From a virus (lineage: Duplodnaviria > Heunggongvirae > Uroviricota > Caudoviricetes), in IMG/VR virus record IMGVR_UViG_2541047122_000023: 8,509 bases of DNA. One strand, 5' to 3'. Shown here in pieces: positions 3,096 through 3,248 of the stretch. Under the pieces are notes generated by a model. It did no database searches and was not told where the DNA came from. It saw only the letters and a program-made list of their open reading frames with translations. The first letter of the stretch is position 1; every line of letters begins with the position of its first letter. The translations under genes and the position numbers were made by a program.

Positions 3096-3125
3096 ATTCT
3101 ACCTACTCGCCGAATACCATTTCAA
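3096..3125 (-). promoter_or_regulatory. Candidate sigma70 promoter for the AT-rich cassette
   Basis: On the minus strand: TTGAAA (3125-3120), 18-nt spacer, TAGAAT (3101-3096). Predicted start near 3088, about 20 nt upstream of the ATG at 3068. Hand-identified; no scoring matrix applied. Confidence 0.35.
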
Positions 3126-3146
3126 TGCCACACATCTAAAATTCCG

Positions 3147-3172
3147 AAAAAAAACCCGCACATCAGCGGGTT
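3147..3172 (-). terminator. tR'-like intrinsic terminator just downstream of Q and the late promoter; potentially bidirectional
   Basis: AACCCGC-acatca-GCGGGTT (3153-3172) is a 7-bp stem. On the minus strand it is followed by a run of at least 6 T (complement of 3152-3147); on the plus strand it is followed by TTCTACTTTTTAT. Position relative to Q mirrors the lambda pR'-tR' arrangement. Confidence 0.6.
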
Positions 3173-3219
3173 TTCTACTTTTTATTAAAGCCGGACACAC
3201 AATGCCTATCATTGAGAAA

Positions 3220-3248
3220 ATATTATCCATTTTTTTTGAAAAATGCAA
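3220..3248 (-). promoter_or_regulatory. Candidate late promoter (pR'-like) immediately downstream of Q
   Basis: On the minus strand: TTGCAT (3248-3243), 17-nt spacer, TAATAT (3225-3220). It lies 30-60 nt past the Q stop and about 50 nt before the tR'-like hairpin, consistent with a short Q-modifiable late leader transcript. The Q-binding site cannot be identified by eye. Confidence 0.35.

What the first reader, a model, noticed from the sequence alone, without database searches (positions are those of the whole stretch)
3096..3248. Two closely spaced candidate promoters flanking the tR'-like terminator
A pR'-like promoter (TTGCAT-17-TAATAT, 3220-3248) directs a short leader into the tR'-like hairpin. 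About 20-50 nt beyond the terminator, a second promoter-like element (TTGAAA-18-TAGAAT, 3096-3125) is positioned to drive the cassette independently of Q. This would allow cassette expression in the lysogen while keeping lysis genes Q-dependent.
Basis: seen in the sequence. Interest (0 to 1): 0.35.

Follow-up and report, generated by a model that had tools for sequence, protein, structure and literature searches.

The report
Late promoter, terminator, then cargo promoter
Downstream of this E. coli prophage's Q gene lie a lambda-type late promoter and terminator, followed by a separate, conserved promoter belonging to an inserted two-gene cargo cassette, which is the ordinary "moron" layout that lets cargo be expressed in lysogens while lysis stays switched off.

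Summary
Both motifs are present, on the minus strand, at the stated coordinates.

**First promoter (pR').** TTGCAT-17-TAATAT matches the consensus poorly (7/12). It is nevertheless collinear with lambda pR':
- the same 17-nt spacing;
- a sigma-dependent pause element (AATGAT) at the predicted +1;
- a strong terminator about 66 nt downstream.

It follows a Q-lambda-family Q gene. Published K-12 data for the Qin homologue show a mapped TSS at the predicted base, a strong sigma70-dependent pause at +16/17, and an RNA 3' end at the terminator.

**Second promoter (P2).** TTGAAA-18-TAGAAT (10/12) starts 21 nt after the terminator's T-tract.
- Homology to SfV, mEp460 and Stx-phage backbones stops at that T-tract, so P2 belongs to the inserted cassette.
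- In divergent cassette homologues the hexamers and spacing persist while the spacer sequence diverges. This holds behind other Q alleles, behind Q21-type Q, in tail regions and beside a tRNA gene.
- Each homologue has its own terminator.

**Verdict.** The layout is a textbook moron with a Pstx1-like arrangement, so interest is low to moderate.

The parts
3280..4032 (-). Q antiterminator gene, 250 aa, Q-lambda family
   Evidence: Pfam PF03589, E = 8e-53. 34% identity to lambda Q over its full length. PF03589 is the Q-lambda family according to PMC9388147.
3243..3248 (-). pR' -35 hexamer, TTGCAT
   Evidence: Invariant in SfV, Ayreon, mEp460, Stx2k phage, 2H10, Lys8385Vzw and K-12 Qin. Aligns with the lambda pR' TTGACT.
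3226..3242 (-). pR' 17-nt spacer, candidate Q-binding element, containing an A8 run
   Evidence: 12 of 17 positions are identical to the lambda pR' spacer, where the QBE lies (PMC9388147). Q binding was not tested. The A run is 7 long in L018 and L019.
3220..3225 (-). pR' -10 hexamer, TAATAT
   Evidence: Relatives carry TAAGAT, TAAAAT or TAATGT. T1, A2, A3 and T6 are invariant.
3208..3213 (-). Predicted +1 (A at 3213) and sigma-dependent pause element AATGAT
   Evidence: Collinear with lambda +1 AACGAT; relatives carry AACGATGGG exactly as lambda does. The homologous A in K-12 Qin is a mapped TSS with sigma70-associated pauses 16-17 nt downstream.
3147..3174 (-). tR' intrinsic terminator: hairpin plus T8
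   Evidence: Terminator scan and RNA fold. The same element is annotated as a terminator in the SfV and Ayreon records. A Term-seq 3' end lies in the tail of the K-12 Qin homologue.
3147..3213 (-). Predicted leader RNA of about 66 nt, terminated at tR' in lysogens
   Evidence: Inferred from the predicted +1 and the terminator. Fold is -21.1 kcal/mol, z = -3.2.
3120..3125 (-). Cassette promoter P2, -35 hexamer TTGAAA
   Evidence: Promoter scan, 10/12 overall. TTG is kept in 5 of 6 aligned cassette homologues.
3096..3101 (-). Cassette promoter P2, -10 hexamer TAGAAT
   Evidence: Homologues carry TAAAAT, TAGACT, TATGCT or TATTCT at the same aligned position, with an ungapped 18-nt spacer. TA...T is invariant.
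3073..3079 (-). Conserved TCTGGAT block, a Shine-Dalgarno-like element, 4 nt before the ATG at 3068
   Evidence: After the promoter hexamers, it is among the most conserved intergenic columns in the six-sequence alignment.
2526..3068 (-). Cassette gene 1: 180-aa GNAT-fold protein. Homologues start at the second ATG (3065).
   Evidence: phrog_11949 and no Pfam family. AlphaFold2 mean pLDDT 87.8; the top Foldseek PDB hits are all GNAT acetyltransferases. Start-codon comparison.
2149..2382 (-). Cassette gene 2: small partner ORF
   Evidence: phrog_11292 matches residues 17-77. Nucleotide homology with the L027, L029 and L031 cassettes runs to about 2145.
2066..2094 (-). Cassette terminator: 13-pair stem plus T-run
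   Evidence: Terminator scan. Every cassette homologue has an intrinsic terminator of different sequence at this position.
1493..1509 (-). Further intrinsic terminator ahead of the holin coding region
   Evidence: Terminator scan.

Best explanation
The 3069-3279 gap holds two separate transcription signals that meet at a recombination junction.

**1. The phage's own late switch, of the lambda type.**
- A constitutive sigma70 promoter pR' (TTGCAT-17-TAATAT) starts at about A3213.
- RNA polymerase pauses on the -10-like AATGAT at +1 to +6, where Q would load.
- Without Q, transcription stops at tR' (3174-3147), giving a roughly 66-nt RNA.

**2. The promoter P2 of an inserted moron.**
- P2 (TTGAAA-18-TAGAAT) starts immediately after the tR' T-tract.
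- The moron carries a GNAT-fold gene and a small partner gene and ends at its own terminator (2094-2066).

**Expected behaviour.**
- In a lysogen, P2 should transcribe only the two cargo genes.
- After induction, Q-modified polymerase from pR' should read through tR', the cassette, its terminator and a third terminator into the lysis genes.

**Shown versus inferred.** Shown here: the sequence anatomy, the homology, the conservation pattern, and published transcript ends for the K-12 homologue of pR'-tR'. Inferred: activity of both promoters in this allele, the constitutive nature of P2, and Q-dependent read-through.
For: **pR' and tR'**
- The upstream gene is a Q-lambda-family Q.
- The layout is collinear with lambda. 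Lambda reads TTGACT-17-TAAATT-TGACTC-AACGATGGG; the window reads TTGCAT-17-TAATAT-TTTCTC-AATGATAGG.
- The block from the Q stop codon to the terminator is conserved in seven phages and in K-12 Qin.
- In K-12, the homologous A is predicted at 1642422 in NC_000913.3. This corresponds to the dRNA-seq TSS at 1640446 in NC_000913.2.
- That TSS has sigma70-associated pauses 16-17 nt downstream, in the twelfth and twenty-fourth rows of the score-ordered pause table for the sigma70-purified, Gre-deficient sample (PMC7876045).
- A Term-seq 3' end lies at 1642356, in the terminator tail (PMC7815308).
- pR' promoters are constitutively active and terminated at tR' in lysogens (PMC7547250).

**P2**
- Homology to related phage backbones ends at window position 3148.
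- Homology to the L027 cassette runs from 3173 to 2145.
- In six aligned homologues, mean pairwise identity is 0.66 in the hexamer columns, 0.30 in the spacer and 0.35 elsewhere. The TTG and TA...T positions reach 0.94, and the 18-nt spacer is ungapped.
- 13 of 14 distinct homologues have a sigma70-like site whose -10 ends 30-38 nt before the start codon.
- Sites of at least 9/12 occur in 9 of 14 homologues, against 2.0 expected; 0 of 500 shuffles reach this.
- The contexts differ: other Q-lambda alleles, Q21-family Q, tail genes, a methylase gene and a tRNA end.
- Each homologue has its own terminator.
- The cassette is 39-42% GC, against 47-52% in the flanks.
- No palindromic operator, Fur box or LexA box is found at P2.
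Against:
- pR' matches the sigma70 consensus at only 7/12.
- Across the whole window, promoter-like matches are not enriched: 5 observed against 8.8 expected at 9/12 or better, and 1 against 1.05 at 10/12 or better.
- P2 has a sub-optimal 18-nt spacer and no extended -10.
- The shuffle tests on homologues treat related sequences as independent. There are really about five independent groups.
- The cassette is AT-rich and could be silenced by H-NS in vivo.
- The K-12 3' end could partly come from Q-gene read-through rather than from pR'.
- The conversion between the two K-12 coordinate systems (offset 1,976) rests on my own knowledge of the record changes.
Confidence: 0.75

Rival explanations
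1. P2 is a real promoter but is not constitutively on in lysogens. It may be silenced (for example by H-NS on the AT-rich cassette) or controlled by a host factor or by the small partner protein. Cargo expression would then be conditional.
For: The cassette is 39-42% GC against 47-52% in its flanks. The 18-nt spacer is sub-optimal. Distant Photorhabdus homologues carry a 15-16/19 Fur-box match between the -10 and the start codon, so regulated versions of this cassette promoter may exist.
Against: The P2 regions of the window, L027, L029 and L031 contain no inverted repeat with arms of 5 nt or more. The window has no Fur or LexA box. The spacer and flanks are not conserved among close homologues, so there is no shared operator.
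Confidence: 0.15
2. P2 is a chance sigma70-like match. The cassette is transcribed only as part of the Q-antiterminated late transcript from pR'.
For: One site of at least 10/12 per window is what shuffles give. The cassette lies on the late strand downstream of pR', so read-through alone could express it.
Against: The same hexamers, at the same distance from the start codon, are kept in homologues whose spacers have diverged. They are also kept in homologues with no Q or pR' upstream, in tail regions and beside a tRNA gene. A site of this quality in the 78-nt gap is expected only 0.005-0.007 times. Each cassette has its own terminator, which a purely late gene would not need.
Confidence: 0.07
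3. The TTGCAT-17-TAATAT motif is not the late promoter. Late transcription starts elsewhere, and the hairpin merely terminates the Q gene's own transcript.
For: The consensus match is weak, 7/12, below the scan threshold. The K-12 3' end is labelled only 'orphan' and does not name its promoter.
Against: The layout is collinear, element by element, with lambda pR' including the pause element. The block is invariant across relatives. In K-12 Qin a mapped TSS sits at the homologous base, with a sigma70-dependent pause 16-17 nt downstream.
Confidence: 0.03

Closest known systems
Phage lambda late regulatory cassette (Q, pR' with QBE, sigma-dependent pause element, tR', 6S RNA)
   Same: A Q-lambda-family Q gene sits directly upstream. 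The promoter has a 17-nt spacer that is 12/17 identical to lambda's. A -10-like pause element lies at +1 to +6. An intrinsic terminator follows. The K-12 homologue pauses at +16/17, as lambda pR' does.
   Different: The Q protein is 250 aa, with a 48-aa insertion relative to lambda Q. The leader is about 66 nt rather than 194 nt. The TTGACT -35-like element that precedes the pause element in lambda is degenerate here (TTTTCT).
Pstx1 of Stx1 phages: an independent, Fur-repressed promoter downstream of pR'-tR' that drives cargo without phage induction (PMC7547250)
   Same: The order of elements is the same: pR', then tR', then a cargo promoter, then the cargo, then the lysis genes. Cargo is expressed in the lysogen and read through late in infection.
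   Different: The cargo is a GNAT-fold protein plus a small partner, not a toxin. The window's P2 has no Fur box (9/19, below the shuffle mean).
Morons of lambdoid phages (Hendrix/Juhala concept: an autonomous promoter-gene-terminator unit inserted between backbone genes)
   Same: The unit is absent from related backbones at the same slot. It has its own promoter-like site and its own terminator, and a lower GC content than its flanks.
   Different: It carries two genes rather than one. Expression in the lysogen has not been shown for this unit.
StxS / lambda 6S RNA: short pR'-tR' transcripts made in lysogens; StxS acts as an Hfq-dependent sRNA (PMC7547250)
   Same: A short, terminated pR' transcript is predicted, with a U-tailed terminator hairpin and an A/U-rich stretch upstream of it.
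   Different: There is no sequence relationship to StxS, whose precursor is 258 nt and is processed to 74 nt. No evidence for Hfq binding or for a target exists here. Rfam gives no match above threshold.

Membership tests
Lambda-type Q-dependent late switch | A Q-lambda-family antiterminator gene immediately upstream | tested here: met
   PF03589, E = 8e-53. 34% identity to lambda Q, E = 1e-41. Family assignment follows PMC9388147.
Lambda-type Q-dependent late switch | A sigma70 promoter shortly after the Q stop codon, active without Q | tested here: inconclusive
   The motif is present and collinear with lambda pR'. A TSS is mapped at the homologous base in K-12 Qin. Activity of this allele was not measured.
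Lambda-type Q-dependent late switch | A -10-like sigma-dependent pause element in the initial transcribed region, with a pause near +16/17 | tested here: met
   AATGAT lies at the predicted +1 to +6; relatives carry lambda's AACGATGGG. The pause is observed in the K-12 homologue only.
Lambda-type Q-dependent late switch | A Q-binding element between the -35 and -10 hexamers | not testable with these tools
   The spacer is 12/17 identical to lambda's, but it is AT-rich. Q binding requires an experiment.
Lambda-type Q-dependent late switch | An intrinsic terminator downstream that stops unmodified polymerase | tested here: met
   Hairpin plus T8. The element is annotated as a terminator in SfV and Ayreon. 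A Term-seq 3' end lies at the K-12 homologue.
Lambda-type Q-dependent late switch | Q-dependent read-through into the lysis genes | not testable with these tools
   Holin, endolysin and Rz genes lie downstream on the same strand. No functional test was possible.
Moron (autonomous cargo unit) | Present between genes that are adjacent, or differently filled, in related phages | tested here: met
   Homology to SfV, mEp460, Ayreon, 2H10 and Stx phages stops at the tR' T-tract, and those phages carry other cargo there.
Moron (autonomous cargo unit) | Its own promoter | tested here: met
   This is met at sequence level only. The site scores 10/12. Hexamers and spacing are conserved across divergent homologues in unrelated contexts. 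Activity was not measured.
Moron (autonomous cargo unit) | Its own terminator | tested here: met
   A 13-pair hairpin plus T-run at 2094-2066. Non-homologous terminators occupy the same place in all homologues examined.
Moron (autonomous cargo unit) | Base composition that deviates from the flanking phage DNA | tested here: met
   34-42% GC across 1850-3200, against 47-52% in the flanks.
Moron (autonomous cargo unit) | Transcribed in the lysogen | not testable with these tools
No whole genome is held for this window.
Pstx1-type Fur-regulated cargo promoter | A Fur box overlapping the promoter | tested here: not met
   The best match to the 19-bp Fur consensus in the P2 region is 9/19, below the shuffle mean of 10.3.

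The most novel reading that the evidence does not exclude
The roughly 66-nt RNA made constitutively from pR' and ended at tR' might not be a mere by-product. It could be a StxS-like trans-acting small RNA of lysogens. It has a free 5' part, an A/U-rich stretch and a U-tailed terminator hairpin. The K-12 Qin homologue is demonstrably made and terminated in uninduced cells. On this reading the locus would emit two lysogen-stage products side by side: an sRNA and the GNAT cassette mRNA.
Probability: 0.12. Interest if true: 0.5.

Novelty: new member of a known kind. Interest (0 to 1): 0.25.

Why it matters
This gives a concrete transcription map for the late region of a prophage carried by 98 of 5,426 complete E. 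coli genomes, many of them O157:H7.
- It predicts that the GNAT-plus-partner cargo is a lysogen-expressed function rather than a late gene. That guides how the cargo's role should be tested.
- It is a clean example of a moron promoter preserved as a phylogenetic footprint while the cassette moved between different Q types and other prophage slots.
- It links one of the strongest sigma70-dependent pauses reported in E. coli K-12 to a cryptic-prophage pR'.

None of this changes current understanding of lambdoid regulation.

Tried and rejected
- **Whole genome.** None is held for this window.
- **Rfam.** Only sub-threshold leader or terminator look-alikes over the tR' region, so no known RNA family.
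- **PADLOC.** No defence family for either cassette protein.
- **Literature on quuQ/ydfT transcription.** Nothing useful.
- **Other K-12 TSS datasets.** The Cappable-seq supplements did not cover the region as stored. The Conway 2014 supplements and the Thomason 2015 paper are not held.
- **Identical cassette in another context.** I first thought L016, L018 and L019 carried the identical cassette elsewhere. The apparent break was only a 1-nt homopolymer indel.
- **Regulatory sites at P2.** An operator, Fur box and LexA box were all considered and none was found.
- **Alternative pR' -10.** GATAAT with a 15-nt spacer was rejected in favour of TAATAT with 17 nt. The 17-nt reading is collinear with lambda, and relatives carry TAAGAT or TAAAAT there.

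Full report
**Setting.** The window is the late region of a lambdoid prophage, with all genes on the minus strand. In order they are:
- RusA (5872-6261)
- a KilA-N protein (5043-5852)
- a DUF968/YdfU protein (4046-5041)
- a 250-aa Q antiterminator (3280-4032)
- a 211-nt gap (3069-3279)
- a 180-aa ORF (2526-3068)
- a small ORF (2149-2382)
- a methyltransferase fragment
- holin, endolysin and Rz

Q belongs to Pfam PF03589, which Yin et al. 2022 (PMC9388147) equate with the Q-lambda family. It is 34% identical to lambda Q along its whole length, with a 48-aa insertion.

**Observation.** On the minus strand:
- TTGCAT (3248-3243), 17 nt, TAATAT (3225-3220).
- A hairpin, CCCGC-TGATGT-GCGGG, extendable by A/T pairs to 3174-3151, followed by T8 (3154-3147).
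- TTGAAA (3125-3120), 18 nt, TAGAAT (3101-3096).
- The ATG at 3068.

As motifs the two promoters differ.
- The first scores 7/12 and falls below the scan threshold.
- The second scores 10/12 and is the best sigma70-like site in the window.
- Promoter-like sites are not enriched window-wide: 5 against 8.8 expected at 9/12 or better, and 1 against 1.05 at 10/12 or better in 300 dinucleotide shuffles.
- A site of at least 10/12 within the 78 nt between the terminator and the start codon, on the coding strand, is expected only about 0.005-0.007 times.

**The first promoter is the homologue of lambda pR'.** The lambda record reads TTGACT, a 17-nt spacer, TAAATT, TGACTC, then AACGATGGG. The window reads TTGCAT, a 17-nt spacer, TAATAT, TTTCTC, then AATGATAGG.
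- The spacers, where the lambda Q-binding element lies, are identical at 12 of 17 positions.
- The lambda +1 A and the -10-like sigma-dependent pause element AACGAT correspond to AATGAT at 3213-3208.
- SfV, Ayreon, mEp460, an Stx2k phage and Lys8385Vzw carry AACGATGGG exactly as lambda does. So do 2H10 and the cryptic prophage Qin of K-12.
- The whole stretch from the Q stop codon to the terminator is conserved in all of them.
- The -10 varies only at positions 4 and 5 (TAATAT, TAAGAT, TAAAAT, TAATGT).
- The SfV and Ayreon records already annotate the hairpin as a terminator.

The predicted transcript (3213 to about 3147, roughly 66 nt) folds to -21.1 kcal/mol (z = -3.2), with an 11-bp terminator stem.

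**Published data on the K-12 homologue.** By alignment, the base in Qin homologous to lambda +1 is 1642422 in NC_000913.3. The offset between record versions .2 and .3 at this position is 776 + 1 + 1199 = 1,976. That figure comes from my own knowledge of the record changes, and it places the base at 1640446 in NC_000913.2.

- **TSS and pause.** Supplementary Data 1 of Sun et al. 2021 (PMC7876045) covers sigma70-purified complexes from Gre-deficient cells.
  - It lists pause sites at 1640429 and 1640430 on the minus strand, with scores of 6881 and 5783.
  - These are the twelfth and twenty-fourth rows of the score-ordered table.
  - They are assigned to a dRNA-seq TSS (Thomason 2015) at 1640446, at distances of 17 and 16.
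- **3' end.** Supplementary file 1 of Adams et al. 2021 (PMC7815308) lists a curated Term-seq 3' end at 1642356 on the minus strand, in at least two conditions. The printed flanking sequence is the Qin terminator, and the 3' end lies in its tail.

So in uninduced K-12 the homologous promoter fires at the predicted base, pauses as lambda pR' does, and its RNA ends at the homologous terminator. Sy et al. 2020 (PMC7547250) summarise that pR' promoters are constitutively active and terminated at tR' in lysogens.

**The second promoter belongs to an inserted cassette.**
- Megablast against phage records shows that similarity to SfV, mEp460, Ayreon, 2H10 and many Stx phages covers window 3400-3148 and stops at the end of the T-tract.
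- Those phages carry other cargo in this slot: small ORFs, cold-shock genes or stx genes.
- One phage, vB_EcoM-689R6, matches the cassette segment that was searched (window 2400-3400) at 99.8% identity over its full length.
- The same 98 of 5,426 complete E. coli genomes, many of them O157:H7, carry both this pR'-tR' allele and the cassette.
- The cassette is 39-42% GC, against 47-52% in its flanks.
- It ends in a strong terminator at 2094-2066.

**Conservation of P2.** Relatives of the 180-aa protein (41-99% identity) were located in genomes and viral contigs.

- **Extent of homology.** Nucleotide homology between the window and the L027 cassette (91% protein identity) runs from 3173 to 2145, from the tR' hairpin to just past the second gene.
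- **Alignment.** I aligned the 100 nt upstream of the start codon in six homologues (window, L027, L029, L031, L013, L032). The -35 column reads TTGAAA, TTGAAA, TTGAAA, ATGGAA, TTGAGT, TTGCTG. The -10 column reads TAGAAT, TAAAAT, TAAAAT, TAGACT, TATGCT, TATTCT. The 18-nt spacer is ungapped and its sequence is scrambled.
- **Identity by column class.** Mean pairwise identity is 0.66 in the hexamer columns, 0.30 in the spacer and 0.35 in the other intergenic columns. It is 0.94 at the six positions that matter most to sigma70 (TTG and TA...T).
- **All 14 distinct homologues.**
  - 13 have a sigma70-like site whose -10 ends 30-38 nt before the start codon.
  - Sites of at least 9/12 occur in 9 of 14, against 2.0 in shuffles.
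  - Sites of at least 10/12 occur in 6 of 14, against 0.33.
  - In both cases 0 of 500 shuffles reach the observed count.
  - The sequences fall into about five independent groups, so these counts overstate independence.
- **Contexts differ**. The cassette is found behind other Q-lambda-family alleles (L027, L029), behind Q21-family Q proteins (L031, L009), after tail genes (L013, L032), after a DNA methylase gene (L010) and next to a tRNA 3' end (L034, L037).
- **Terminators.** In each case examined, a non-homologous intrinsic terminator follows the second gene.

This is the signature of a promoter that travels with its genes.

**Regulation of P2.** The P2 region has no inverted repeat with arms of 5 nt or more and no Fur or LexA box. 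The spacer is not conserved among close homologues. The simplest reading is an unregulated, moderately strong promoter. Silencing of the AT-rich cassette by H-NS remains possible.

**Cargo.** The 180-aa protein has no Pfam or PADLOC family. AlphaFold2 models it confidently (mean pLDDT 87.8), and its top PDB matches are all GNAT acetyltransferases (probability 1.0, TM about 0.5). This agrees with earlier notes from this scan.

**Mechanism.**
- In the lysogen, pR' makes a roughly 66-nt terminated RNA, and P2 transcribes the two cargo genes up to the terminator at 2094-2066.
- A further terminator at 1509-1493 also shields the lysis genes.
- After induction, Q loads at the paused complex. The modified polymerase then reads through all three terminators, expressing the cargo again and then holin, endolysin and Rz.

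The element order matches that of Stx1 phages, where Pstx1 lies downstream of pR'-tR' (PMC7547250), and it matches the moron concept. The finding is therefore a new member of a known kind.

**Limits.**
- Q binding, Q-dependent read-through and P2 activity are inferred.
- The K-12 3' end could include read-through from the Q gene.

Noticed in passing
window 3231-3238 (A8 run in the pR' spacer) and 3147-3154 (T8 of tR'); L018 and L019 at 2822-2849; L016: The run of A's inside the pR' spacer, which is also the candidate Q-binding element, is 8 long in the window but 7 long in L018 and L019. That changes the -35/-10 spacing from 17 to 16 nt. L016 has T9 instead of T8 in the terminator tail. FRIK2533 also shows a 119-nt rather than 120-nt match. 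This is either real slippage that could tune or disable the late switch, or homopolymer sequencing error.
   Followed up: partly
L010 about 2960-2985, L011, L039 (Photorhabdus cassette homologues): Between the -10 (GTGACA-16-TATGAT) and the start codon, these homologues carry a 15-16/19 match to the Fur-box consensus (for example TATATTGATAATTATTATC). That is at or above the maximum seen in shuffles. The cassette may be iron-regulated there, as Pstx1 is.
   Followed up: partly
L040 4355-4423 (K-12 MG1655 1642356-1642422, minus strand, downstream of ydfT/quuQ in Qin): The cryptic prophage Qin retains a complete pR', pause element and tR' module. Its pause is in the twelfth row of the score-ordered sigma70-associated pause table of Sun et al. 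2021, and its RNA 3' end is listed only as 'orphan' in Adams et al. 2021. Neither table labels it as a prophage late promoter.
   Followed up: partly
window 3143-3147 and the same junction in L027 and L029: The cassette's left boundary falls exactly at the end of the tR' T-tract. The window, L027 and L029 share CGGA right after T-tracts of otherwise different terminators. This suggests that terminators serve as recombination joints for this cargo.
   Followed up: partly
window 3073-3079: TCTGGAT, just upstream of the start codon, is one of the most conserved intergenic blocks among cassette homologues outside the promoter hexamers (only the few bases abutting the hexamers score as high). It is probably the ribosome-binding region, although only GGA matches a Shine-Dalgarno sequence.
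   Followed up: no
window 3065-3068: Homologues of the 180-aa protein begin at the position of the second ATG (3065: MF.AFQ...). The annotated first ATG (3068) may therefore not be the start used.
   Followed up: partly
window 2335-2525: A gap of roughly 140-190 nt, containing a weak terminator-like hairpin (2405-2385), separates the two cassette genes. Whether the small gene has its own start signal was not examined.
   Followed up: no
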